64,000 nt of DNA from Escherichia phage 241Ecol014PP. The notes under the pieces were generated by a model. The model was not told the DNA's origin. It did no database searches and saw only the letters and a list, made by a program, of their open reading frames with translations. The stretch lies in sequence record OR062943.1. One strand, written 5' to 3'. The number at the start of each line of letters is the position of its first letter. Within the stretch, counting starts at the first letter, position 1. The position numbers and the translations under genes are program-made. Of the stretch, positions 1,255-55,788 are shown piece by piece.

Positions 1255-1708
1255 GGTAACCCTCTATCCACGAAAAGTCAGTCTTCCATTCTGGAACTTT
1301 ACTAAGCTCACGCCACTCTGCAAAGCAGTCTCGGTAATAGGCCTCTGCCATACCCTTGGTGATCTTATTCACCTTAGCCAACTGATTAACTGCTTGAGCA
1401 TACTTTCCACGGATATTTGCTAACCCAGGATGCACCGATGTGTGACAATCTGGGCACAACGCTATCAGTCCGACAAGCCGGATCACTCCCTCTTCGAAAG
1501 TGTAAAGTTCATGACACTCCACTGGATGTTTGCTGCCTTTACCTCCGCACACCTCACAAGTGTAGTTTGCTTCTCTGTAGCACTTCTTGCGGATCTTATC
1601 CCACTCACTCTTCTTCACAGCGTTCCGGAGGTTATTATACCAAGCTGTTTCTGGGATCAGTTGCACAATAAGCCTGCGTTCAGACTTCATTAAACGTCCG
1701 TCTTCCAC
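1244..1708 (-). CDS. HNH endonuclease-like protein
   Basis: CEVCGG...HPVECHELY...LCPDCH spacing of Cys/His matches the HNH zinc-finger nuclease pattern. Confidence 0.5.
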   Translation of the reverse strand: MEDGRLMKSERRLIVQLIPETAWYNNLRNAVKKSEWDKIRKKCYREANYTCEVCGGKGSKHPVECHELYTFEEGVIRLVGLIALCPDCHTSVHPGLANIRGKYAQAVNQLAKVNKITKGMAEAYYRDCFAEWRELSKVPEWKTDFSWIEGYLDG

Positions 1709-1717
1709 GTATTCTCC

Positions 1718-1924
1718 TCATTCAAAGAAATGGGTGCGAGGACAAGATCCCGCCTCGCCTTGTTTCACAAGCTCGTAGAGCTCACCTTGGCTTGTCTCAT
1801 AAAGGCAAATACGTTTACCATTGTCCCGATATACATCGACAAGATACGCTGTTTCACCTGCAAACACGACACCACAGGCCAGACATGCTGCCATGAACAA
1901 AATTGCCAACAGAAAATCTTTCAT
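1718..1924 (-). CDS. small secreted protein, probable lipoprotein (68 aa)
   Basis: N-terminal hydrophobic signal (LLAILFMAAC) with lipobox-like MAAC/LAC; four further Cys in the short mature part. Confidence 0.45.
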   Translation of the reverse strand: MKDFLLAILFMAACLACGVVFAGETAYLVDVYRDNGKRICLYETSQGELYELVKQGEAGSCPRTHFFE

Positions 1925-1987
1925 GGTTAAACCCTCCTAAACATTTTATGAGGTAAAAATACCACGTCCGTGTGGTTATGTCAATGA

Positions 1988-2749
1988 TCAATCCTCAACA
2001 CAAGGTCTTGGATAGCCTCTGGATAACTTCCACTCAGTTAGTGACATTCCTCCGTAGAGACAGTTTACTTCCCAAGACTTTCTTGCACAAACTGCCTCCC
2101 ACCAGGGGTTTAGCCACTTCCTGTCGTTGAAGCACCTTAAGTTTCTTCCTTTGTTATCTCGTGCCCTCCAACAGGTATCTTTCTTAGACCAATCAATACC
2201 TGGCAGGATATTATTCTTGTGCGGGTTTGGAACTATCTTTAAAGCCTCTTCCGGGTTGGCTATTGACCATTCAACCCTAGACTTAGCCTCTTCGAAAGTG
2301 TCAAAATCTCCCAACCTAACATTTACCCTATTTATCCTTCTACTTGCCCTCCACTTACCCTCTCTTTTCAGCCATACCACACCAGTCACTGTAGAGGTGT
2401 TATTGCTTTGCACATTTTCCAAGGCTCTCTTACAGTAGTTATCCCAAGGCTTCAACATTTGAAGGTTTTCTATCTTGTCTACAGGCACTCCGTTAGTAGA
2501 ATTTTTCTTAGAGATAATATGATCAATATGCCAAGTATCTGTGACACATCCGTAAAACATGTCAAAAATTTCCCTATGTCTGCCACGTTTAACATTTGTC
2601 AGCTTATTGTACACTTGGAAATATCCAGTCTTTTTGTTGTAGTGTCCAGCCCTATTTCCATTCCTACTGCAGCCAGGTTTCCAAAAGATTAGATCACCAT
2701 CCTTGTACCAATAAGGGTAGTGATCATTAAAAAAGAAATGTATCGTCAT
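1988..2749 (-). CDS. HNH homing endonuclease with AP2-type DNA-binding domain
   Basis: WHIDHIISKKN...N HNH core near the N-terminus; GVVWLKREGKWRASRRINRVNVRLGDFDTFEEAKSRVE resembles an AP2 domain. Confidence 0.6.
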   Translation of the reverse strand: MTIHFFFNDHYPYWYKDGDLIFWKPGCSRNGNRAGHYNKKTGYFQVYNKLTNVKRGRHREIFDMFYGCVTDTWHIDHIISKKNSTNGVPVDKIENLQMLKPWDNYCKRALENVQSNNTSTVTGVVWLKREGKWRASRRINRVNVRLGDFDTFEEAKSRVEWSIANPEEALKIVPNPHKNNILPGIDWSKKDTCWRARDNKGRNLRCFNDRKWLNPWWEAVCARKSWEVNCLYGGMSLTEWKLSRGYPRPCVED

Positions 2750-2803
2750 ATCTCAACACACCTCTGGTGTAGCAAGGTAGGAGAGTGGCCTACCTTTTAA
2801 GCA

Positions 2804-3301
2804 TTAATCCAGAACAACACCTCCAAACTCTACAAATTTCTTAAGCAACTTGTCAATGGTTTTTGGATTTTGGTCGTACTGGTTGTAGGGGAACGAAGCC
2901 CAAATATTTGAGGTCTTACGTATAGCAGATTTAATATGACCGTTATCTATATCTTCAAGTGCTTTACGTTCCCTGATCAACTGGATCGCCCACTTATCCT
3001 GACTGTCTGGTCCAAAATCCGGCAACTTAAGCTGTTTTTTGTAGTGTTCCCAGTATTTGACAAGAAATTGATATTTACCGCAGGCTGTAGTTCTTTGCCC
3101 TTTTGAGTTAAACACTTTACCAGGGCGACCGTTTGCAAAAGGGTGCGTAGAAAAATCTGTAAAGATTTCAGGTTTTCCGTCCATCCCGTATGCTACAACA
3201 TCGTATCCTCCACATTTGGTGGCAGGGTGGGTTGTTGTTCCCTCTGCCCAGCCAATAAGATCCAAGAAAGCTTTTCGTTGAACATTTTTATCAAGTTTCA
3301 T
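2804..3301 (-). CDS. endolysin, lambda R-like lytic transglycosylase
   Basis: Near-colinear with lambda R as I recall it: QRKAFLD..W.EGT, GYDV, FTD(F/Y)S.HP, G(K/R)YQ(F/L)L, QLKL.DF.P.SQD, RK(T/C)SNIWAS(F/L)P, F(V/K)E(F/A)GG. Confidence 0.8.
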   Translation of the reverse strand: MKLDKNVQRKAFLDLIGWAEGTTTHPATKCGGYDVVAYGMDGKPEIFTDFSTHPFANGRPGKVFNSKGQRTTACGKYQFLVKYWEHYKKQLKLPDFGPDSQDKWAIQLIRERKALEDIDNGHIKSAIRKTSNIWASFPYNQYDQNPKTIDKLLKKFVEFGGVVLD

Positions 3302-3425
3302 TTTTCATACTCTCCAGTTTACTCATAACTAACCCGATCAACAACACTGCGTGGTGTGGTTATGTAGGTGCCAATTGAAAAACCATCATTCAATTGGCTA
3401 CCGTTACCTACTAGACCACCCTACA

Positions 3426-4709
3426 TCATTCCAGAACCTCCCAAGTATCTGGGTTAACATTTCGGACGCAGATACCGACAGGGAATTGGTAGTTGTTGTC
3501 TTCTGTCCTTGCTTGATATTTGAAGGTGACAAACTTGCCGATCATTTCCTGCATCCTGTCATAGCTACGCTCCTCGTGCGTGCCTTTCATCTTCATTTTA
3601 ACAACAACACCCTCCTTGTCAACACAGATAAGAACACCTTCATCATTCTTATCTTTCTCAACGTCAATAACTTTCACCTCTGCGTCGTTGAACTTTTTCC
3701 ATTTCAATGCTTCAGATGTTCGCTGACCATACTCATACTTACCACAGAAGTTACGCATAATGGTACCTTCATATCCTTCAGACATAAATATACCAACAGA
3801 CTCTTCGCACCGATCAACTGTATATGCAAGCTCTGCATCAACAACCTTAATATGATCAAGCATCAAAGAAGAAATAGCACCATTTGCCTCCATAAGATCC
3901 TTACAGCGCCCAGACTCTGTTTCAGGATCCCACCACACCTTATCGCTAGGGATATCGAAAATATGATACTCTAAGTCGTAGCTGCAGTACCCTCCGTAAC
4001 GCAAATCATCACGAACAGGCTCAACATCAACAGGAATGTCCATCTTATTGAAGTTTTTGTATGTTGCTAAACCTGCCTTAATCGCAGCCTGACGGCGTTT
4101 TTTATCTGCCTCATAGTCTTTATCGATCTCGGCCTGAATCTCTTCCTGTGTGCGCCACCGTTTAGCAAGAGACACTATTTTCTGCAAAGGAAGACCATGA
4201 ATGTATAGTTCCCCATCAAGTTGTTTAATCCCAGTGGTAGAATGGAAAGAACGAAGTTGCTCTAAAAGCTTTCCTTGAATAGGGTAGGACTTATTACCAC
4301 GGGAAATAAATTTAGGCTCACCATTTTGGAAAACAACAAGCAGACGAAGGCCATCTAACTTACGCAAGATCCAGCAAGGTAATTTAAGTGCCTTGCCACG
4401 CTTCAGGTAGTCATGCACCAGCATGGGTAAAAGGTCAACACCCTGCTCGCAATCTTCCATGTTTTCAACATACCCCAGACGGACTTGTTTTTCCCACTTA
4501 CTGATCGCTTCCAGCTCGGCCTGTTGCTCAGCTGTAGTTTCATTGGTACGACCCACGTTCTTAGGTGTGCAGATCGTCTCTTTGTATTGCAGTTTACCAT
4601 CAAGCTTGCCAAACTCTACGATAACCTTATCACCATCCGTGAATACTTTCCACTGTTGGTAGCTGCCATCTTTGTTCAGTGCGTACAGTGTTGTTTTGAT
4701 TTGATGCAT
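3426..4709 (-). CDS. ATP-dependent DNA ligase
   Basis: Nucleotidyltransferase motif I KLDGLR (KxDGxR), motif IV EGYEGTIMR, motif V KWKKF; 427 aa. Confidence 0.65.
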   Translation of the reverse strand: MHQIKTTLYALNKDGSYQQWKVFTDGDKVIVEFGKLDGKLQYKETICTPKNVGRTNETTAEQQAELEAISKWEKQVRLGYVENMEDCEQGVDLLPMLVHDYLKRGKALKLPCWILRKLDGLRLLVVFQNGEPKFISRGNKSYPIQGKLLEQLRSFHSTTGIKQLDGELYIHGLPLQKIVSLAKRWRTQEEIQAEIDKDYEADKKRRQAAIKAGLATYKNFNKMDIPVDVEPVRDDLRYGGYCSYDLEYHIFDIPSDKVWWDPETESGRCKDLMEANGAISSLMLDHIKVVDAELAYTVDRCEESVGIFMSEGYEGTIMRNFCGKYEYGQRTSEALKWKKFNDAEVKVIDVEKDKNDEGVLICVDKEGVVVKMKMKGTHEERSYDRMQEMIGKFVTFKYQARTEDNNYQFPVGICVRNVNPDTWEVLE

Positions 4710-47885: not shown

Positions 47886-48572
47886 ATGGCAGAGATTAAG
47901 TCGGATGTTAACCACATCCACACTCTGCCAGATTTTGTTCAGGGGGGTCTTGACTACCTACCTGGAGATTTTCTGGCTGAGAAGGTTAATTTAGTCACAT
48001 TCTTAACCGTATACCTTAAAAGGTTGGAGGATGTTGATAAGATGCTGGTAGGTTTGGCTGAAGGAAGATTGCTTAACAATGCCAGCGGAAGATACCTTGA
48101 CGAAGTTGGTAATCAACTTGGTATTCTTAGGAATGGACTTTCAGATGCTGATTTTCGTGCCACACTAATTATTCAGCAGGCCGCAGCATCAAGGGGCGGG
48201 ACTCGCGAAGATGTCATCTCCACCTTGCGACAATTGTTCGGAAGAGACAATTTCGATACGTGGAAAGGAGACAACTTCAGGTTTGACATAAATATTAGAA
48301 AAACTTGCTTTGACATATTGCAGTCTATCGATCAGATCTTAGATATGCTACCATTGCCTTGTCATTTGCGTCTTACAGAATCGCAAGGGCAAGCTTTTGG
48401 TTTTGAAGGGGACTCTACAGCTCTGGGCTTCGGATCAGTGTGGGAAGAAAACCAATTCGGAGTTGGTGGGCTGGCTACTTTGCTGTATGTTCCTGACGTA
48501 AGACCTGATTGGGACACCACAACCATTTATTGTGAAAGTATTACAGTAAACGCAACTAGACAGGAGGGTTAA
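47886..48572 (+). CDS. tail protein (228 aa, unassigned)
   Basis: ORF-track ORF. Confidence 0.3.
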   Translation: MAEIKSDVNHIHTLPDFVQGGLDYLPGDFLAEKVNLVTFLTVYLKRLEDVDKMLVGLAEGRLLNNASGRYLDEVGNQLGILRNGLSDADFRATLIIQQAAASRGGTREDVISTLRQLFGRDNFDTWKGDNFRFDINIRKTCFDILQSIDQILDMLPLPCHLRLTESQGQAFGFEGDSTALGFGSVWEENQFGVGGLATLLYVPDVRPDWDTTTIYCESITVNATRQEG

Positions 48573-50644
48573 TGGCAACAGCTGTTTTTAAACCTTACCG
48601 TGATTACTCTACAATGGCTGCACAGTTTCATTACCGAACAGTTCAGGATACTGCCGTTCCTGGTAGAGATTATAATCATGTTGAGGGCGATGTAACTATC
48701 CCAATTGGGGCAACCAGTATTGAGATCCCCGTGGAAATTGTTGACAAATTACCCAACAGGTTGCCAAGAAGCTTCTTTATGGAGTTTTCATCAAAATCTC
48801 AAGGGGTAATGATTGGAACACAAAGGGCGAAATGTACAATAGTTTCAGATGAGAATCTCGACAGGATATCTTGGGATACTGTTGAGGAGAGAATGTTCCA
48901 CCCAAGATATTGGGTTACAACTACTCAGCAGACTGAAAGTACCTGTATTGTTGCAGATAACAACTGTTGTATTAACCGTTTAGTGTCAAGAACATATGGA
49001 GGTATGGCTGGGTGCATTTGGGAAACAGTTGACAAGTATGACCATTTCGGCATTGGGTTTGATGATCATTATGAGATGAGAAACACCAAGCTATGGTTCA
49101 GAATGTCAATAACCAACGCCAGCAACTTCTCCACTCCTGAAAAGATGATTATGACTGTAGACCTTGTTGATGGCACAATCATCTATGTTCCTTTAGCTCA
49201 ATATGCTGTCAGCATCTCAGAGGATAAGAATGTTGCAGAAATTCATATTGATTTTGAGGACTGCGTCGGGATGGACCAGAACAACAACATGATGGGTGTT
49301 GATCCTCGGCAGGTGAGAAGGATTTTAATACCACTTATGCCTAAAGACTGGGTAAGTAACAGCACAGACCCGAGAACGGAAAACGTAGAGTGTGAGTTGC
49401 GCCTAGATCTGCTTCAGCCAGACACAGGCTGGAAAATGATGCAACTTAATAATATCCAGGTGAAAGAACACGACGTTGGAATCTGCACAGCATATGACGA
49501 TATGTGGAACGTATCCCCTTTAAGGGTGTTGAACAATATCAAACGTCTGGGCTATACCGGAACCATAAACCATTATGTTGGTATGAGTCATTATTATGAC
49601 TACACATGGTCAGGAACCCAATGGTCTATAAACAAAACAGGAGCGCTAAACGCTGCAGCTTATAAATGGCATGATGATTTTATGTACAATGCCAAACGAC
49701 ATAACTTCGACGTTATGCAATCTGTAAGTTTTGAGCTTTTCAGTGATGCCTGCCCGTTGGAATGGACCCAAAGAGACTGGAACGATAACTACGCTAAAAC
49801 AGGGTATACACCTTGTAGTTACCTCCTGTCTCCAACCATTGAAGAGGGTATGAATTTTCTTACTGCAGTATTTAAGAATTTTGCATCAGCCGCTATGAGA
49901 AACAATCTGCCAGTGATTATGCAGGTTGGTGAACCATGGTGGTGGTACAATACCGATACTCGTAGACCTTGTATTTATGATTACCCTACAAAGCAGGCGT
50001 TTTATGATGAGACAGGTGAGTATGCATTAGATATTGGGACTATTGACGATCCTAAAACTGGCGGTGTTTACGATAAGTATGTAGCATTTTGTCGTGGTAA
50101 GCTTGGCGCTCGTATTGCAGCTATTTCAAAGGCAATAAAGGCACACGCTGCATCAGCTCAGATGACAGCTTTGCTGTTTTTCCCAACCATCATGGAAACC
50201 GAGCTTACACAAAAGCTGAACCTTGCTGACCAATATAAAAAGGAAGCAGGTGCTCTTGATTTCTTCTGTACCGAGTGCTACGATTGGGTGATGCAGGGAG
50301 GTATTGAAAAGGCAAAAGAGTCTGTAAACATACCTATCGTTAAGTTAGGCTGGCAACCGTCTGAAATACAATACCTTGCAGGGTTCGTTCCTAGTAAAGA
50401 GCTTGCTCCGGTATATGGCTACGACCCAACTAGGAATTACCAAGAATTTTTATGGAGATGTATTTGCGGAAACATGGCAACTATAGAGTATAGATACCCT
50501 GAGGTAAAACAGTATGTGTGGGCATACCCGCAAGTAATGTCTGACAGCATCACTGTTACCGCTAGAGATTCTACCGTGCTTCATATGGGGCAGGTTGCTC
50601 TGAAAGGGTATGTAGAAGATGTTGTCCCGCCAGACTTCTCATAA
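48572..50644 (+). CDS. tail-associated protein (690 aa), possible enzymatic spike
   Basis: N-terminal Calx-beta-like segment (HYRTVQDTAVPGRDYNHVEGDVTIPIGATSIEIPVEIVD); remainder unassigned. Confidence 0.3.
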   Translation: MATAVFKPYRDYSTMAAQFHYRTVQDTAVPGRDYNHVEGDVTIPIGATSIEIPVEIVDKLPNRLPRSFFMEFSSKSQGVMIGTQRAKCTIVSDENLDRISWDTVEERMFHPRYWVTTTQQTESTCIVADNNCCINRLVSRTYGGMAGCIWETVDKYDHFGIGFDDHYEMRNTKLWFRMSITNASNFSTPEKMIMTVDLVDGTIIYVPLAQYAVSISEDKNVAEIHIDFEDCVGMDQNNNMMGVDPRQVRRILIPLMPKDWVSNSTDPRTENVECELRLDLLQPDTGWKMMQLNNIQVKEHDVGICTAYDDMWNVSPLRVLNNIKRLGYTGTINHYVGMSHYYDYTWSGTQWSINKTGALNAAAYKWHDDFMYNAKRHNFDVMQSVSFELFSDACPLEWTQRDWNDNYAKTGYTPCSYLLSPTIEEGMNFLTAVFKNFASAAMRNNLPVIMQVGEPWWWYNTDTRRPCIYDYPTKQAFYDETGEYALDIGTIDDPKTGGVYDKYVAFCRGKLGARIAAISKAIKAHAASAQMTALLFFPTIMETELTQKLNLADQYKKEAGALDFFCTECYDWVMQGGIEKAKESVNIPIVKLGWQPSEIQYLAGFVPSKELAPVYGYDPTRNYQEFLWRCICGNMATIEYRYPEVKQYVWAYPQVMSDSITVTARDSTVLHMGQVALKGYVEDVVPPDFS

Positions 50645-50656
50645 TCAGGAGATAAA

Positions 50657-51697
50657 ATGTCAAAACCTAGTTTTCCATTAGAGATTTGGGCAGAGGAGGA
50701 TCAGGTTCTGCCTAACACCCACAGACAGAACAGGCTACGCCCGATTGATGATTTGTGGAGAAAAGGTTGGGATCTTGGTCAAAAGCCCTCATGTGAAGAA
50801 CTTAACTATATTTTCAATATGCTCGGGACTTGGGCAAAATACATTGCTGACGAGCAGATCCCCGCTCAAGAAGGCCGTTATCTGGTACGTGATAATAACT
50901 TGAGTGATCTTTTGAACATTCCTGTTGCCCGTAGAAACCTTGGGATTATTACTAAGGAAGAGGCAGACGCCAGGTATGTAAAAGTTACAGGTGATACAAT
51001 GACAGGCCCACTGGGTTTGCAACGTATCAACTTTAAAGCTGCCGAGACAGATAAGGCTTGGATAGAGACAACTATTGGCCCAGATAAGACAACTCTCGAC
51101 TTTGGGTTAAGTGATAATATTGGGTCGTTTGATGATGGTGGCACATCTACAATAGATGCGTTTCGTTGGAGATTCCAGCCAACTCAGCCGGATATTAATC
51201 CAGAGTTCACTTTGATGTACCTTAACGCGATCACGGCTAACCGTGCGCTGTTGAAAGTGGTCGGCAATGTTGAAGTTGTCGATAACATGAGGTGCAATAA
51301 CCTTACTATCAGCAATACAGCAACATTCACCAACTGTAATGTGGCTAGTCAGTTGACGGCTGGGTCAGTATATGTTAATGGTGGTGCAAGTTGTGACAGT
51401 ATGGTTGTAAGAAGCCAGCACTGTGTTGTAGGTAACAGAAATGTGGTTCGCTCTGTGAACGGAGTGACGGCTAACGGTAACGGTGATGTAACGATCACTA
51501 TCCCGCAGACGGGTGTGCAAGACATCAGAATCGGTGCAAGACTTGTGGACGGCGTTTCTGAATCTCCAATCCGCAACGGCTACGTTGTCACAGGCTGGCA
51601 TTTCGGTGACAAAAAAGAGATGCGTGGTTCAACTTACTGGGCAGGACCTTTACAAAAACTTGTAAATGGTCAATGGATCACTGTTAATTATGCATAG
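50657..51697 (+). CDS. side tail fibre-like protein, copy 1
   Basis: GDTMTGPLGLQRI motif; paralogous to 52709-53755 (shared termini, ...KLVNGQWIT(V/I).YA); followed by a Tfa. Confidence 0.55.
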   Translation: MSKPSFPLEIWAEEDQVLPNTHRQNRLRPIDDLWRKGWDLGQKPSCEELNYIFNMLGTWAKYIADEQIPAQEGRYLVRDNNLSDLLNIPVARRNLGIITKEEADARYVKVTGDTMTGPLGLQRINFKAAETDKAWIETTIGPDKTTLDFGLSDNIGSFDDGGTSTIDAFRWRFQPTQPDINPEFTLMYLNAITANRALLKVVGNVEVVDNMRCNNLTISNTATFTNCNVASQLTAGSVYVNGGASCDSMVVRSQHCVVGNRNVVRSVNGVTANGNGDVTITIPQTGVQDIRIGARLVDGVSESPIRNGYVVTGWHFGDKKEMRGSTYWAGPLQKLVNGQWITVNYA

Positions 51698-51711
51698 ATC
51701 GGAGGACTAGC

Positions 51712-52296
51712 ATGAAAATACTTCAAGAGTTTAAACTTTACCAACCGGGATCTGGCGAATACCACGCCAACAAGGAAACCAAAGAGCTGACCCCTCAAGA
51801 GGTCGAGGATTACACCGCATACACTGGGTATTTTTTACGTAATGATGATGGTGATTGGTATGTGCAGTCACGAACATTACGACAAGAAAATCCAGGGTGT
51901 ATCTTCCTACTTGTTGACGAGAAGGGAATTCTTAAGACATCTACAGAAGAACCTGATGCCTTATGGCCTGCTCCAGGTCTTCGTGTGGTTATCGCCAAAA
52001 AAGAAGAGGTACCAGAAAACATTATGCTTCACCACGACGATTTGCGTTTAGTTGGTGATGAATTTGTCACAGACAATGAATTCTTTGTTCAACAGGCAGA
52101 GGGTGTCATAGAGACAGAACTTGCTTGGGCTACTGCTAGAATTGGTGCCTATCAAGACATGATTGACCTTGAATATGATCTTACTGATGACCAGAAACGT
52201 AACATCAGAGATTTGAAAATGTACAGGGTAAAACTTCTTGAAATAGATACATCTAAAGCCCCTGACATTTTCTTCCCGGAGCGACCTACCCTCTAA
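51712..52296 (+). CDS. tail fibre assembly chaperone (Tfa-like)
   Basis: C-terminus LKMYRVKLLEIDTSKAPDIFFPERP parallels the lambda Tfa C-terminus as I recall it (KKYRVLLNRVDTS.A.DI.WP..P); 194 aa. Confidence 0.7.
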   Translation: MKILQEFKLYQPGSGEYHANKETKELTPQEVEDYTAYTGYFLRNDDGDWYVQSRTLRQENPGCIFLLVDEKGILKTSTEEPDALWPAPGLRVVIAKKEEVPENIMLHHDDLRLVGDEFVTDNEFFVQQAEGVIETELAWATARIGAYQDMIDLEYDLTDDQKRNIRDLKMYRVKLLEIDTSKAPDIFFPERPTL

Positions 52297-52307
52297 GAGG
52301 AGGTGTT

Positions 52308-52622
52308 GTGGAGTTGGATTTGGCGGCATTGTACGGTATCTGCATGGGTACCGTTGTCCCGATCTGTGTATGGGCTTTCAACCAGTGGCACACCAAATGG
52401 AAAGGCATTTCCAAGAGGTTGGAAGAGCTGGAGAAAGACCTCATCTTAGTGAAAAACAGTATGGTTACAAAAGATAAACTTGATTCCGTTATAGAGACCC
52501 GGTTAAGCAAGCTAGAGGCCGATATTAACGACCTTAAGCAGGATGTCAGGACAGATGTCTCCGGCATCAGAGCCGATGTACAAAAGATTTTGCACATGCT
52601 CGTAGAGCATAGTAAAAGGTAA
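52308..52622 (+). CDS. membrane-anchored coiled-coil protein (104 aa)
   Basis: One N-terminal transmembrane segment (LAALYGICMGTVVPICVWAF) then charged coiled-coil; GTG after AGAGGAGG. Confidence 0.35.
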   Translation: MELDLAALYGICMGTVVPICVWAFNQWHTKWKGISKRLEELEKDLILVKNSMVTKDKLDSVIETRLSKLEADINDLKQDVRTDVSGIRADVQKILHMLVEHSKR

Positions 52623-52630
52623 ACAAAGGT

Positions 52631-52660
52631 CAGAACGGAAAGGACTCCGTTCTTGCATTT
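52631..52660 (+). terminator. hairpin with weak T-run
   Basis: GAACGGA...TCCGTTC hairpin then TTGCATTTTGTT. Confidence 0.4.
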
Positions 52661-52681
52661 TGTTCCCTAAAGTGTTAAAAT
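52653..52681 (+). promoter_or_regulatory. sigma70-like promoter TTGCAT-17-TAAAAT
   Basis: TGt-extended -10 at 52676-52681. Confidence 0.45.
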
Positions 52682-52708
52682 AGTCCTAAGGAATTTTCTC
52701 AGGAGAAC

Positions 52709-53755
52709 GTGATGACTAAACCAGTTATCCCTCTTGATATTTGGGCCAATCAGGATGTTGTGCTTGAAAATACGGGAGAGTTGAATAAGTCTCAACCAAA
52801 AAAAGAAGAGAGATTGAAAGGTTGGGATATGACACAAAGAGTGGCATGTGAAGTTGTTAACTTTGAACTTCACATGCTTTCTGCGTGGTTAAAGCATTTA
52901 ACAGAAGATGTTGTCCCAGGATGGGATAATAGATTCTTAAGGGTCACTAATAATCTAGCAGACGTTCCAGACAAAGCTGCTGCACGTCAAGTTCTCAATG
53001 TATACTCGCCTGAAGAAATGGACGATCTGTATGTTGACAAGTCTGGAGACATAATGACTCAGACTCAAACTTTAGGCCTTCAAAGAATCGAGTTTGCATC
53101 TGCGTCAACAGACAATGCGGCAATATATACCACCATAACTCCAGACAAGACGACGATGGACTTCTGGATTATGGACAACATCGGTGGTGCTGACGGCACA
53201 GACCTTGATGATCCTTCTCACCAAATAGACGGGTTCCGTTGGAGATTTCAACCTTCTGGTGGGCAGCCTGTGTTTTCGGCTATGAAGCTCAATGCTATAA
53301 CTGCCAACCGTGCAAGACTGGCTATCCAAGGAAATCTTGAATGCAACGATGCAAAAAGTTCCTCTGCAAATGCCAATGCGGTCACGATACCAAGAGCCAC
53401 TGTTAACGGACAACAATCCTGCGGAAGCGCTCAAATAGGTGGAAGAGTTGATTGTAACGATGAAACCGTTAGAGGCCAATATGCAACCGTTGGTGGAAGA
53501 AACGTGGTCCGCAGGGTAAACGGTAACAGCGCAGACGGTAGTGGTAACCTTACTGTCCCTATGCCCAGTAGAGGGGTTGACGATGTAAGGATAGCGAACC
53601 GTTTCAAAACCACCTACAGAGAGTCAAGAGTCTACCCTGGACATGTGATGTGCTCTGGTAACTACGCTTATAAACACCCTTATCAAGGTGATTACTGGAC
53701 AGGTGCTATCCAAAAACTTGTAAACGGTCAATGGATCACTATATCTTATGCTTAA
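52709..53755 (+). CDS. side tail fibre-like protein, copy 2 (paralogue)
   Basis: Same N- and C-terminal architecture as 50657-51697, divergent middle. Confidence 0.55.
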   Translation: MMTKPVIPLDIWANQDVVLENTGELNKSQPKKEERLKGWDMTQRVACEVVNFELHMLSAWLKHLTEDVVPGWDNRFLRVTNNLADVPDKAAARQVLNVYSPEEMDDLYVDKSGDIMTQTQTLGLQRIEFASASTDNAAIYTTITPDKTTMDFWIMDNIGGADGTDLDDPSHQIDGFRWRFQPSGGQPVFSAMKLNAITANRARLAIQGNLECNDAKSSSANANAVTIPRATVNGQQSCGSAQIGGRVDCNDETVRGQYATVGGRNVVRRVNGNSADGSGNLTVPMPSRGVDDVRIANRFKTTYRESRVYPGHVMCSGNYAYKHPYQGDYWTGAIQKLVNGQWITISYA

Positions 53756-53766
53756 AAAGAGGGTAA

Positions 53767-54033
53767 ATGAAACTAACTCAGTTTTTATGGGGACTGGTTG
53801 CGGCATCTGATGACCCTACGAAAGTATCCCAATCTAAGCTATGGTCGAACATAGGCATGGCGGTGATGACTGGGGTGTTTATTCATATGGGGTATAATGA
53901 TACGCTTCCTGAATGGTATGCGTGGATATATGCACCTTCAGTAGCCTGCCCCCAGCTTATTAGCAAATTCATCTCGCTCCGGTGGGGTTGCCAGCACCCT
54001 GACCACGTTAAAAACGAAGAGCAAAAAGCTTAA
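53767..54033 (+). CDS. small hydrophobic protein (88 aa)
   Basis: Hydrophobic segments (IGMAVMTGVFIHMGY, YAWIYAPSVA) and charged C-terminus. Confidence 0.3.
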   Translation: MKLTQFLWGLVAASDDPTKVSQSKLWSNIGMAVMTGVFIHMGYNDTLPEWYAWIYAPSVACPQLISKFISLRWGCQHPDHVKNEEQKA

Positions 54034-54042
54034 GGAGAAATC

Positions 54043-55788
54043 ATGGCGCAAGACATGACAAGCTTCGAGCAGGCGGTAGATCAAGTAATTGTTGATTCTG
54101 AACGTTTGCACTTGATTGTCAACGGTAACGCTGTGGATGAAGTTGTCGTAGAGGATGGGACCACTATCCCTACGGTACGAAAAGCCATGCTTGACACCCT
54201 TTATTTTAAAACGCCACCAATCCCTTGGGCGTATGGTGCATCCACAACAGTTTTTAACCAGTTGTATGAGTTTAAAGGGGATACAGGCACTCAGTGGTGG
54301 TACGCCCCAGCAGCATCAAAATCTAACCCGGTTAGAATGCCAGCAGATCCTTCACAATCTCCAAACTGGAGATTATACACCGACTCTGCAGTAATGGCAA
54401 AATACTACGCAAAACTTAACAGCCCAAGGTTCGAAGGTGACCCGCGAGTACCTACACCTCCAATGGACGATAAGTCAGAGTCCATAGCAAACACAGAGTT
54501 TGTTGTTGACTATGTTGATAGCATATTTAAAGCCATGGAGGGGATGAAAGTTACTGTAGGATCTTTGGTGGTAAAAGGTCTTACAGAACTCGCTAACACT
54601 ATAGTTGGTGGCACCCTTACCTTACATGGACCTGTTAATGGGGCAGATTCTACTGCACGCTTTAGGAATCTAATCCTCACGGCAAATACTTCTACACTTA
54701 CTTTTGCGTGGAGCGATCCTAAGCATGCAGACTGGAGAAGTACAGAGCTGCAACCTCATGAAGTGTCCACCCACAGGGTTATAGCTGACACTATAACTTC
54801 TGGGAAACCAGTGGCTAATAATAACGATGTGCATTTTGATGGTCTGGGTAATAACTTTTTTGACTACGTGTACATTCGTGGTAATGCCATGAAGGCAGCA
54901 ACCGAGCCGACATTGCAGGTCGATGGGACCGCCAGGGTTAAGAACCTTGAGGTGACAGGCACCGTTACAGGGATAACATACTCTGTCGATGGCACCATGA
55001 TCTACCCTAGCTATATTGAAAGCACGGGTGATGCATTGATAAATGGCGATTTGGAGGTTGGCGGATCTGTAGTTATTCGAGGTACAGCCTCTATCCAAAA
55101 CATAGCTCTGAATACCCTAAGAGTCAATGAGCGTGCAACTTTTGAAGGGGAAGGACTTACAGCCAACAAAGGTGTAATTACCGAGCTGACAACCACTACT
55201 TTAACTGCAACAACTGCAAACTCTGAAAACTGCAACGTTACCAGAAACTTGCAGGTAAATGGAGATGTTAGTTTAAACGCAGCAGGGACGGGCACCACCT
55301 ACCTTCACAACCTTGAAATATCCGGCACAGTGACTGGGTGGCTGCCAGACTTCTCTAATGTCAACTTTGTTTGTAATGGCATTAACTCCAGTGGCAAGAT
55401 AACCACCTCTCAAGAAATTGAGGCGGGTAAAACCATTACTGCCCCTACTTTCCACGCAGGAAAGGTAGATTTTGATTTAGAGGAGGTTGACGCGTCCAGT
55501 GGGACATGGACACCTAACGGGCAGGCCAGTATGTATGTTGTCCACGCGAAAGGGGATTTTACAATAGGACAATGGCCTGGGACATCAGCGGAAGATAAAC
55601 CTTATCCATTCACTGCAGTTATCTATGTCATTCAGGATGCTGTAGGTCACAACGTGACTTTGCACGATAAGTATGCTATCCTGTCGGCAACACCTGTTAT
55701 TAACAACAAGGCTAACAGTGTTACCTTGCTGCAATTAACGTATTGTGGTGTTGGTGATATTGTAGACGTAGTAATTGCACAACGTTAA
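54043..55788 (+). CDS. tail fibre or spike protein (581 aa)
   Basis: Thr/Gly/Asn-rich beta-type repeats (TGTVTGITYSVDGT, LNAAGTGTTYLHNLEISGTVTGW). Confidence 0.4.
   Translation: MAQDMTSFEQAVDQVIVDSERLHLIVNGNAVDEVVVEDGTTIPTVRKAMLDTLYFKTPPIPWAYGASTTVFNQLYEFKGDTGTQWWYAPAASKSNPVRMPADPSQSPNWRLYTDSAVMAKYYAKLNSPRFEGDPRVPTPPMDDKSESIANTEFVVDYVDSIFKAMEGMKVTVGSLVVKGLTELANTIVGGTLTLHGPVNGADSTARFRNLILTANTSTLTFAWSDPKHADWRSTELQPHEVSTHRVIADTITSGKPVANNNDVHFDGLGNNFFDYVYIRGNAMKAATEPTLQVDGTARVKNLEVTGTVTGITYSVDGTMIYPSYIESTGDALINGDLEVGGSVVIRGTASIQNIALNTLRVNERATFEGEGLTANKGVITELTTTTLTATTANSENCNVTRNLQVNGDVSLNAAGTGTTYLHNLEISGTVTGWLPDFSNVNFVCNGINSSGKITTSQEIEAGKTITAPTFHAGKVDFDLEEVDASSGTWTPNGQASMYVVHAKGDFTIGQWPGTSAEDKPYPFTAVIYVIQDAVGHNVTLHDKYAILSATPVINNKANSVTLLQLTYCGVGDIVDVVIAQR

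What the first reader, a model, noticed from the sequence alone, without database searches (positions are those of the whole stretch)
50657..53755. Duplicated side tail fibre genes with divergent centres and a single Tfa chaperone
ORFs 50657-51697 and 52709-53755 share N- and C-terminal sequences but differ in the middle, as expected for receptor-specificity paralogues. Only the first is followed by a Tfa-like chaperone; a membrane-anchored coiled-coil protein lies between the copies.
Basis: seen in the sequence. Interest (0 to 1): 0.45.

Follow-up and report, generated by a model that had tools for sequence, protein, structure and literature searches.

The report
Known rV5 short tail fibre paralogs
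These are the two already-described paralogous short tail fibre genes (rV5 gp33 and gp30) and their single Mu/lambda-type assembly chaperone in an rV5-like E. coli phage, so the finding is real but ordinary and already published.

Summary
The window is an rV5-like Vequintavirus, 99% identical at the nucleotide level to phage naam. ORFs 50657-51697 (346 aa) and 52712-53755 (347 aa; the true start is ATG 52712, not GTG 52709) are real paralogs, 44% identical with E 1e-96. They correspond to rV5 gp33 and gp30. Between them lie a Caudo_TAP chaperone (gp32) and a 104-aa single-TMD heptad-repeat protein (gp31). The pair plus chaperone was described by Kropinski 2013 and by Maffei 2021, who call them short tail fibres homologous to Mu GpS/GpU.

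The best-conserved block is central (residues 105-205). The weakest stretches are 45-100, 204-245 and 290-330, and only the last ~20 residues are near-identical.

Additional points from this work:
- Both copies are under strong purifying selection (dN/dS 0.02 and 0.06).
- Copy A keeps the ancestral baseplate anchor and Mu-S-like tip, whereas copy B is derived in both.
- Copy B sits where single-copy relatives carry a 157-aa membrane-protein gene.
- In one uncultured lineage the C-terminal tip has been exchanged between the paralogs.
- There is one Tfa locus per genome.

Whether that Tfa serves both fibres is an inference. Interest is low.

The parts
50657..51697 (+). Short tail fibre paralog A (346 aa), ortholog of rV5 gp33. 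It retains the ancestral anchor and tip.
   Evidence: ORF. phrog_4465 E 9e-172. 99% identical in about 115 Vequintavirus genomes. 45-52% identical to the single-copy fibres of Av-05, GAP31 and a Seunavirus. dN/dS 0.022 against L006.
50657..50980 (+). N-terminal baseplate-anchor region of copy A (residues 1-108).
   Evidence: phmmer to PDB 9cuy_c 'Short tail fiber' of phiTE, residues 1-111, E 1.4e-19. In phiTE, STF residues 3-92 were modelled bound to wedge 1.
51512..51694 (+). C-terminal tip module of copy A (residues 286-346), of the Mu gpS type.
   Evidence: phmmer to 5yvq_A Mu tail fibre protein S residues 440-501, E 1.7e-6. The family profile gives E 3.6e-9. Foldseek top hit is 5yvq_A, E 2.9e-6. 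58.6% identical to the tail-fibre tips of Rosemountvirus-type phages.
51712..52296 (+). Tail fibre assembly chaperone (Tfa, 194 aa), ortholog of rV5 gp32. It is the only Tfa in the window.
   Evidence: Pfam Caudo_TAP E 7.5e-12, residues 121-192. phrog_136 E 1.7e-36, full length. Only Tfa-profile hit in the six-frame ORFs. One locus per complete genome.
52308..52622 (+). 104-aa protein with an N-terminal transmembrane segment and a heptad-repeat region (rV5 gp31). Function unknown. It is conserved next to the Tfa in single-copy relatives too.
   Evidence: phrog_5345, unknown function, E 6e-48. Hydrophobic windows at residues 3-24. Homologs follow the Tfa in Av-05, GAP31, R7 (32-33% identity) and W22 (23%).
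52632..52653 (+). Terminator-like hairpin in the 86-nt gap upstream of copy B, with a weak T-tail.
   Evidence: Pattern scan. RNA fold of 52615-52715 gives -26.3 kcal/mol, z -2.48. Function not shown. rV5 Table S4, as far as it was read, lists no terminator here.
52712..53755 (+). Short tail fibre paralog B (347 aa), ortholog of rV5 gp30. Its anchor and tip are both derived.
   Evidence: phrog_4465 E 5e-166. Shine-Dalgarno AGGAG at 52701-52705. At least 95% identical in about 115 genomes, and only 36-40% identical to single-copy fibres. dN/dS 0.059. It occupies the slot of the 157-aa membrane-protein gene of single-copy relatives.
53573..53752 (+). C-terminal tip of copy B (residues 288-347). 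It is a diverged member of the same tip family, and its last ~20 residues match copy A.
   Evidence: Alignment. 33% identity to the A-type tip of phage birk over 57 residues, pairwise E 1e-8. 93% conserved between the window and L008. A single-sequence phmmer search did not reach Mu gpS.
51634..51696 (+). 63-nt 3'-terminal block of copy A, 83% identical to 53692-53754 at the 3' end of copy B.
   Evidence: the repeat finder family D1. Same codon at 10 of 13 identical non-M/W residues against 5.07 expected, P 0.005.
53767..54033 (+). 88-aa membrane protein (rV5 gp29). It belongs to the conserved small-membrane-protein cassette and is not a chaperone specific to copy B.
   Evidence: phrog_1322 'membrane protein', E 2.7e-32. 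49-53% identical homologs sit in the same position in single-copy relatives.

Best explanation
The region is the short-tail-fibre module of an rV5-like Vequintavirus. It holds two anciently diverged paralogous fibre genes (A = rV5 gp33, B = rV5 gp30) and one Mu-GpU/lambda-Tfa-family assembly chaperone (gp32).

Shown:
- Each fibre has an N-terminal domain of about 100 residues homologous to the phiTE short-tail-fibre anchor, which docks on baseplate wedge protein 1.
- Each fibre then has a beta-rich shaft and a C-terminal tip module of about 60 residues of the Mu gpS type.
- Copy A keeps the ancestral anchor and tip.
- Copy B is derived in both, is conserved as such across lineages, and lies where single-copy relatives carry a 157-aa membrane-protein gene.
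- Both copies are under strong purifying selection.

Inferred:
- Both proteins are trimeric virion fibres that bind the terminal receptor in the LPS core after the lateral fibres have engaged the primary glycan.
- Their different tips broaden or back up LPS-core recognition.
- The single Tfa folds and trimerises the tip module of both fibres, as TfaMu does for Mu gpS. The reasons for this inference are that both tips belong to one family, share the last ~20 residues, and can be exchanged between the paralogs.
For: - Identity and synteny: 99.1% nucleotide identity to phage naam, with the same gene order as rV5 gp27-gp37.
- Paralogy: E 1e-96.
- Anchor homology to phiTE STF. Structural role of that region.
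- Tip homology to Mu gpS.
- Tfa family membership.
- Prior literature: two paralogous short tail fibres plus a chaperone homologous to Mu GpS/GpU (Maffei 2021); gp30/gp33 42.3% identical (Kropinski 2013).
- Terminal receptor at the LPS outer-core glucose for LL12 and the BASEL Vequintavirinae.
- Purifying selection: dN/dS 0.022 (A), 0.059 (B), 0.054 (Tfa).
- Both copies are intact in about 115 genomes and in two further divergent lineages with the same layout.
- Single Tfa.
- Tip exchange between paralogs in L011.
- Mu-type Tfa remains on the virion and its N-terminal domain binds the fibre tip, as summarised in PMC9608196.
Against: - No direct evidence here that the Tfa acts on copy B. B's tip has lost the motif GVSES...TGW.FG.KKE.RG shared by copy A, the single-copy fibres and Mu gpS, and B alone does not reach Mu gpS by phmmer.
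- In Mu, each fibre variant has its own chaperone (S/U and S'/U'; established knowledge). Rosemountvirus birk has one fibre with two Tfa genes. One Tfa for two different tips is therefore not the default arrangement.
- Virion presence of gp30, gp32 and gp33 rests on one sentence in the rV5 paper. The held MS table (19 proteins) contains no protein of 346, 347 or 194 aa, and Table S3 does not flag these three as MS-supported.
- In L011 both paralogs carry the same tip, which weakens 'two receptors' as the general purpose of the pair.
- The AF2 monomer models are poor (pLDDT 62 and 58), so the domain boundaries rest on sequence alone.
Confidence: 0.6

Rival explanations
1. Division of labour is by attachment site, not by receptor. 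Copy B's consistently derived N-terminal anchor docks at a different baseplate position from copy A, or onto another fibre. This would give two rings or sets of short fibres, and the tips may bind the same or similar LPS structures.
For: B's anchor is diverged in a way that is conserved among three lineages (motifs ELNK.QP.K, GWD..QR.A.E..NFE..M). It matches phiTE STF far more weakly than A does (2e-8 against 1.4e-19). In L011 the two paralogs keep different bodies but share the tip (84% identity). BASEL reports no allelic variation in either paralog and the same LPS requirement for all tested Vequintavirinae.
Against: In the window lineage and in L008 the two tips are clearly different and each is conserved (93% for B, 92% for A), which is what distinct ligands predict. 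No structure of a Vequintavirus baseplate was found.
Confidence: 0.2
2. The Tfa serves only copy A, the gene it directly follows. Copy B has become chaperone-independent or uses another factor.
For: The Tfa is adjacent to A (14-nt gap), whereas B lies behind an 86-nt gap with a hairpin. B's tip has lost the motif conserved from Mu gpS to copy A. Fibre-chaperone pairs are normally adjacent and specific, as in Mu S/U and S'/U' (established knowledge).
Against: B retains the tip family fold signature and the last ~20 residues of A. Tips are interchangeable between the A and B bodies in L011. No other Tfa was found in the window or in complete genomes. There is precedent for a shared fibre chaperone in T4 gp57A (established knowledge; cited).
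Confidence: 0.25
3. A and B co-assemble into heterotrimeric fibres, nucleated at their shared C-terminal end by the single Tfa.
For: The last ~20 residues are near-identical and the central block (residues 105-205) is 50-67% identical. There is a single chaperone.
Against: Anchors and tips differ strongly, at 27-37% identity. Single-copy relatives manage with one gene. No fibre in the related solved structures was described as heterotrimeric.
Confidence: 0.05
4. Copy B is a redundant or decaying duplicate without its own function.
For: It evolves somewhat faster than A: 80 of 116 records fall at 95-99% identity, against 23 of 116 for A. dN/dS is 0.059 against 0.022.
Against: It is intact in about 115 genomes and in two further divergent lineages. 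dN/dS of 0.059 is strong purifying selection. Synonymous sites between A and B are saturated, so the duplicate has been kept for a long time.
Confidence: 0.02

Closest known systems
Escherichia phage rV5 gp33 / gp32 / gp31 / gp30 / gp29 (Kropinski et al. 2013, PMC3606486) and the 'short tail fiber' paralogs plus 'tail fiber chaperone' of BASEL Vequintavirus phages such as CarlMeissner bas48_0035-0039 (Maffei et al. 2021, PMC8594841)
   Same: Same genes, sizes (346/194/104/347/88 aa), order and orientation. 98-99% nucleotide identity. The paralogy (42.3% identity) and the single chaperone are already described.
   Different: Nothing substantive. This window is simply another isolate of the genus.
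Phage Mu tail fibre gpS with chaperone gpU (TfaMu), PDB 5yvq
   Same: The C-terminal tip module is homologous (E 1.7e-6 for copy A, 3.6e-9 for the family profile; Foldseek E 2.9e-6). The chaperone belongs to the same Caudo_TAP family.
   Different: Mu has one fibre gene with alternative C-termini, each paired with its own chaperone (S/U and S'/U', switched by G-segment inversion; established knowledge). Here two complete fibre genes share one chaperone and there is no invertible segment. The N-terminal anchor is unrelated to that of Mu. The window Tfa did not reach the Mu Tfa chain by phmmer.
Pectobacterium phage phiTE short tail fibre (PDB 9cuy/9mjn; PMC11972413)
   Same: The N-terminal ~100 residues are homologous. 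phiTE is in the same subfamily, and the last residues (...PIQKKVNGVWVTI) resemble the tip end seen here.
   Different: The phiTE STF is 554 aa, with a long coiled coil and Ig-like domains. phiTE has a single copy and is flagellotropic and LPS-independent.
Single-copy short tail fibre cassette of Avunavirus Av-05 and of Seunavirus GAP31 / PVP-SE1-like phages
   Same: Same module order (STF, Tfa, 104-aa protein, then 88-aa protein and 581-aa fibre). The proteins are homologous: STF 45-52% identical to copy A, Tfa 23-33%, 104-aa 32-33%, 88-aa 49-53%.
   Different: They carry a 157-aa polytopic membrane-protein gene where this window has copy B. No remnant of that gene is present in the window.
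T4 gp12 short tail fibre
   Same: Functional analogy: an LPS-core-binding short fibre of a myovirus baseplate. Kropinski 2013 reported HHpred similarity of gp30 and gp33 to gp12.
   Different: No gp12 match appeared in the PDB sequence searches or among the top Foldseek hits here. The gp12 chaperone gp57A is unrelated to Tfa (established knowledge).

Membership tests
Vequintavirus short tail fibre paralog pair (rV5 gp33/gp30; PHROG 4465) | Full-length sequence match of both ORFs to the family profile | tested here: met
   phrog_4465 E 9e-172 (A, 1-346 against 1-342 of 342) and 5e-166 (B).
Vequintavirus short tail fibre paralog pair (rV5 gp33/gp30; PHROG 4465) | Synteny: 690-aa protein, STF-A, Tfa, 104-aa, STF-B, 88-aa, 581-aa, 1878-aa | tested here: met
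   Window ORFs compared with CarlMeissner and rV5 Table S3.
Vequintavirus short tail fibre paralog pair (rV5 gp33/gp30; PHROG 4465) | Both proteins are components of the virion | tested here: inconclusive
   The rV5 main text lists gp30, gp32 and gp33 among proteins detected by mass spectrometry. The held Table S5 (19 proteins) has no 346-, 347- or 194-aa entry, and Table S3 does not flag them.
phiTE-type short tail fibre (baseplate wedge-1-binding N-terminal domain) | N-terminal ~90-110 residues homologous to the modelled phiTE STF residues 3-92 | tested here: met
   A: E 1.4e-19 over 1-108. B: E 2e-8 over 2-84. Family profile: 4.3e-27. Foldseek 9cuy_a, 51% identity, E 0.029.
phiTE-type short tail fibre (baseplate wedge-1-binding N-terminal domain) | Physical attachment to the baseplate wedge | not testable with these tools
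   Needs cryo-EM of an rV5-like virion. None was found in the literature search.
Mu gpS-type tail fibre tip | C-terminal ~60 residues homologous to Mu gpS 435-502 | tested here: met
   Met for copy A: E 1.7e-6; family profile E 3.6e-9; Foldseek 5yvq_A E 2.9e-6. Copy B alone gave no phmmer hit. It is linked transitively, at 33% identity and E 1e-8, to the A-type tip of phage birk.
Tail fibre assembly protein (Pfam PF02413 Caudo_TAP; lambda Tfa / Mu gpU / P2 gpG) | Score above the Pfam gathering threshold | tested here: met
   46 bits against a 22.1-bit cut-off. Only the conserved C-terminal half is covered (residues 121-192, profile 60-130 of 131).
Tail fibre assembly protein (Pfam PF02413 Caudo_TAP; lambda Tfa / Mu gpU / P2 gpG) | Gene immediately downstream of the fibre gene it serves | tested here: met
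   Met for copy A (14-nt gap). Not met for copy B, which is followed by an 88-aa membrane protein that is also present in single-copy relatives.
Tail fibre assembly protein (Pfam PF02413 Caudo_TAP; lambda Tfa / Mu gpU / P2 gpG) | Binds the fibre tip and promotes its trimerisation | not testable with these tools
   Needs co-expression and pull-down, or a multimer structure prediction. The structure tool here predicts single chains only.
   No direct comparison with lambda Stf was run. The significant matches found were to short tail fibres (phiTE) and to Mu gpS. Public annotation calls these genes short tail fibres.
T4 gp12-type short tail fibre | Detectable sequence or fold similarity to gp12 | tested here: not met
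   No gp12 chain at E<=1 in three PDB sequence searches, and none among the top 50 Foldseek hits of a low-confidence model. Kropinski 2013 reported an HHpred match, which was not reproduced with these tools.

The most novel reading that the evidence does not exclude
The duplication is mainly about baseplate architecture rather than receptor range. The two paralogs are kept because their diverged N-terminal anchors occupy two different baseplate positions. The C-terminal, Tfa-dependent tip is a cassette that is exchanged between the two bodies by gene conversion, which is what lets one chaperone serve both. The evidence is complete homogenisation of the tip in lineage L011 and homogenisation of only the last ~20 codons in the window lineage.
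Probability: 0.2. Interest if true: 0.4.

Novelty: already known. Interest (0 to 1): 0.15.

Why it matters
rV5-like phages are common broad-host-range E. coli phages used for O157 typing, biocontrol and therapy. Their terminal receptor step is attributed to these short fibres. Knowing which paralog binds what, and whether one chaperone folds both, matters for host-range engineering, because swapping a tip requires a compatible chaperone. The basic finding (two paralogs plus one chaperone) is already in the literature, so it adds nothing new on its own. Two small additions here may help design tip-swap experiments: the tip is a module that has moved between the paralogs, and copy B replaced a 157-aa membrane-protein gene.

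Tried and rejected
- AlphaFold2 monomer models of both fibres were poor (mean pLDDT 61.7 and 58.1, pTM 0.33 and 0.27), as expected for chains of an interwoven trimer. I used them only for one Foldseek search, whose two meaningful hits agreed with the sequence searches. No domain boundaries were taken from the models.
- A test for gene conversion along the whole gene (window against L008, four-sequence site patterns) gave 203 orthology sites, 20 concerted sites and 26 control ('cross') sites. There is therefore no general concerted evolution. Only three concerted sites cluster in the last 16 codons. Together with the same-codon excess (P 0.005) this is suggestive but not conclusive for the window lineage. 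The clear case is L011.
- I searched the rV5 supplementary MS table for peptides, masses and lengths of gp30, gp32 and gp33 and found none. I therefore did not use 'both are virion proteins' as established fact.
- phmmer of the Tfa against PDB did not find the Mu chaperone chain; the only hits were spurious.
- NCBIfam gave nothing for any of the five proteins or for the 157-aa protein.
- The body tree places B outside (A + single-copy fibres) with 97% bootstrap. B's long branch and the very distant outgroup make long-branch attraction likely. A and B also share a deletion and several motifs relative to the single-copy fibres. I therefore do not decide between an in-lineage duplication with fast divergence and acquisition of B from a more distant relative.
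- I considered whether the 104-aa, 157-aa and 88-aa membrane proteins are lysis proteins (spanin- or holin-like). I found no family support and did not pursue it.


Full report
**Source and context**

Region 50000-54100 of the window is 99.1% identical at the nucleotide level to Escherichia phage naam. It is 94-99% identical to more than 110 other rV5-like phages of the genus Vequintavirus. The gene order and sizes around the finding are 1279, 496, 228, 690, 346, 194, 104, 347, 88, 581 and 1878 aa, all on the + strand. These are exactly those of rV5 gp37 down to gp27 (rV5 Table S3) and of BASEL phage CarlMeissner bas48_0031-0041.

**Check of the observation**

- ORF A (50657-51697, 346 aa) and ORF B exist as described.
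- B most likely starts at ATG 52712. A Shine-Dalgarno AGGAG at 52701-52705 sits 6 nt upstream of it, whereas GTG 52709 is only the mechanical ORF start. This gives 347 aa, as in rV5 gp30.
- BLASTP of A against B gives 44% identity over the full length, E 1e-96. Both match phrog_4465 end to end. The similarity is far beyond chance.
- The described pattern (shared termini, different middle) is not what the alignment shows. In 30-residue windows the most similar part is central (residues ~105-205, 50-67%). The least similar stretches are ~45-100, ~204-245 and ~290-330 (27-37%). The first 30 residues are 50% identical, and only the last ~20 residues are nearly identical.
- Third positions of identical residues match at about chance level over most of the gene, so the duplication is old.
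- The ORF after A is a Tfa: Pfam Caudo_TAP 46 bits against a 22.1-bit cut-off and phrog_136.
- The 104-aa ORF has one N-terminal hydrophobic segment and a visible 3,4 hydrophobic repeat from about I34 to L98.
- The 88-aa ORF after B is a membrane protein (phrog_1322).
- A profile search of all six-frame ORFs finds one Tfa and two STF genes in the window. tblastn finds one Tfa locus per complete Vequintavirus genome.

**What the proteins are**

- The N-terminal ~100 residues of both copies are homologous to the short tail fibre of phiTE, PDB 9cuy (A: E 1.4e-19; B: 2e-8; family profile: 4.3e-27).
- In the phiTE cryo-EM structure, STF residues 3-92 form a trimeric joint that attaches to wedge protein 1 at the baseplate periphery.
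- The last ~60 residues of A match the tip of Mu tail fibre protein S in its complex with the chaperone TfaMu, PDB 5yvq (E 1.7e-6; profile 3.6e-9).
- A Foldseek search with the (poor) AF2 model returns 5yvq_A (E 2.9e-6) as its only significant hit and 9cuy_a (E 0.029, 51% identity) as the next-ranked one.
- These are therefore baseplate short tail fibres with a Mu-type tip. They are not lambda-style side fibres.

**Prior knowledge**

- Kropinski et al. 2013 described rV5 gp30 and gp33 as similarly sized tail-fibre proteins, 42.3% identical and each with HHpred similarity to T4 gp12. They proposed that two LPS chemotypes may be recognised.
- Maffei et al. 2021 state that Vequintavirinae sensu stricto encode two paralogous short tail fibre proteins and a tail fibre chaperone homologous to Mu GpS and GpU. 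They add that phi92-like phages and Phapecoctavirus have a single copy, and that the paralogs show no considerable allelic variation.
- The terminal receptor was mapped genetically to the first outer-core glucose of LPS for LL12 and is consistent across BASEL Vequintavirinae.
- The finding is therefore already known.
- One caveat: the rV5 main text lists gp30, gp32 and gp33 among MS-detected proteins. However, the held MS table (19 proteins) has no entry of 346, 347 or 194 aa, and Table S3 does not flag these three.

**Evolutionary anatomy, added here**

1. *Purifying selection.* Against a ~94%-identical relative (L006), dN/dS is 0.022 for A, 0.059 for B and 0.054 for the Tfa. Both copies are intact in about 115 database genomes. 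They are also intact in two more divergent lineages with the same layout: L008-L010 (A 87%, B 78% identical) and L011 (A 73%).
2. *A is the conservative copy.* A is 45-52% identical to the single-copy fibres of Av-05, GAP31 and a Seunavirus, whereas B is 36-40% identical. A keeps the tip motif shared with those fibres, with phi92-like W22 and with Mu gpS. B has a different tip sequence at residues ~296-330 that is itself 93% conserved between lineages.
3. *Position of B.* Single-copy relatives have the order STF, Tfa, 104-aa, 157-aa polytopic membrane protein, 88-aa, 581-aa fibre. In this window B lies exactly where the 157-aa gene would be. It is preceded by the only sizeable intergenic gap of the locus (86 nt), which contains a hairpin. 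No remnant of the 157-aa gene is present.
4. *Tip exchange.* In L011 the body of copy B (residues 1-285) is of the B type, but its tip is 84% identical to that genome's own copy A. By comparison, the tips of L011-A and window-A are 64% identical, and those of L011-B and window-B are 37% identical. Neighbour-joining trees give paralog clades for the body (A 100%, B 93% bootstrap) but pair the two L011 tips (100%).
5. *Weaker signal in the window lineage.* Only the last ~20 codons look homogenised. The 63-nt block is 83% identical. The same codon is used at 10 of 13 identical residues, against 5.07 expected (P 0.005). Three lineage-specific synonymous changes are shared by both copies. Elsewhere in the gene there is no excess of concerted sites (20 against 26 control sites).

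**Mechanism**

- Shown: domain homologies, paralogy, purifying selection, a single Tfa, and tip exchange in one lineage.
- Inferred from the Mu and phiTE precedents: both proteins form trimers anchored on the baseplate wedge, and their tips bind LPS-core structures at the irreversible adsorption step.
- Also inferred: the Tfa binds the tip through its variable N-terminal domain and drives trimerisation through its conserved C-terminal helices, possibly staying on the virion as in Mu.
- That one Tfa serves both fibres is plausible. The tips belong to one family (B's tip is 33% identical to an A-type tip, E 1e-8), share their last ~20 residues and are interchangeable between bodies.
- It remains untested, and the usual rule in Mu-like systems is one chaperone per tip variant. 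Rosemountvirus birk even has one fibre with an A-type tip followed by two Tfa genes.
- Main rivals: the Tfa serves only A; or the paralogs differ chiefly in where they dock on the baseplate. The second is supported by B's consistently derived anchor and by L011's shared tip.

**Verdict**

The system is already known, so interest is low. The small additions are the tip exchange between paralogs, the displacement of the 157-aa gene, and the weak documentation of virion presence. These are leads rather than discoveries.

Noticed in passing
database records MG0656xx (for example MG065677 'Campylobacter phage A13b', MG065662 'A142'); Sixteen to 21 records labelled 'Campylobacter phage', with host Campylobacter jejuni, are 98-99% identical to E. 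coli rV5-like phages across this locus. Some others match phi92-like phages. The host labels look wrong, or the lysates were contaminated with coliphages.
   Followed up: no
window 52308-52622 and 53767-54033; L002 5638-6701, L003 5650-6719, L005 5686-6755: A cassette of small membrane proteins is conserved inside the tail-fibre module across Vequintavirinae genera: 104 aa with one TMD plus heptad repeats, 157 aa polytopic, and 88 aa. No family assignment was found in Pfam, NCBIfam or PHROGs. Vequintavirus proper has lost the 157-aa member. Their role (lysis, superinfection exclusion or fibre assembly) is unknown.
   Followed up: partly
window 52632-52653: A terminator-like hairpin (AGAACGGA...TCCGTTCT, then TGCATTTTGT) lies in the 86-nt gap between the 104-aa gene and copy B. 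Folding of 52615-52715 gives z -2.48. It could attenuate or separate expression of copy B from the A-Tfa-104 unit.
   Followed up: partly
rV5 paper PMC3606486, Additional files 3 and 5: The main text says gp30, gp32 and gp33 were detected by virion proteomics. The held MS table lists 19 proteins and none of 346, 347 or 194 aa, and the gene table does not mark them '(MS evidence)'.
   Followed up: yes
L011 (ENA ERZ15185469 NODE_327, 13 kb) and L012: An uncultured lineage has no close isolate in the phage database (best 67-69% nucleotide identity). It has the layout 346-204-104-354-117-583. Its 88-aa homolog carries a ~30-residue C-terminal extension, and its two short fibres share one tip.
   Followed up: partly
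L013 (Salmonella phage birk, Rosemountvirus) 1352-3745: A 444-aa tail fibre whose last 58 residues are ~58% identical to copy A's tip is followed by two tandem Tfa genes, then by a holin-endolysin-spanin cassette. The Mu-type tip module thus occurs in unrelated ~52-kb phages, with the opposite fibre-to-chaperone ratio.
   Followed up: partly
window 48572-50644 and 54043-55788: The flanking fibre genes have recent Pfam assignments. The 690-aa protein has Calx-beta plus NCTSP_N plus a TIM barrel of 'non-contractile tail sheath protein' type (E 3e-80). The 581-aa protein's orthologs carry Phage_phiTE_241_N/C domains.
   Followed up: no
window 51712-52296 compared with L002-L005 Tfa genes (alignment A5): The Vequintavirus Tfa has an insertion of about 13 residues (around residues 24-36, KELTPQEVEDYTA) in its N-terminal, fibre-binding domain relative to the Tfa of single-copy relatives. 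L008 and L011 retain it. Whether it relates to serving two fibres is unknown.
   Followed up: no
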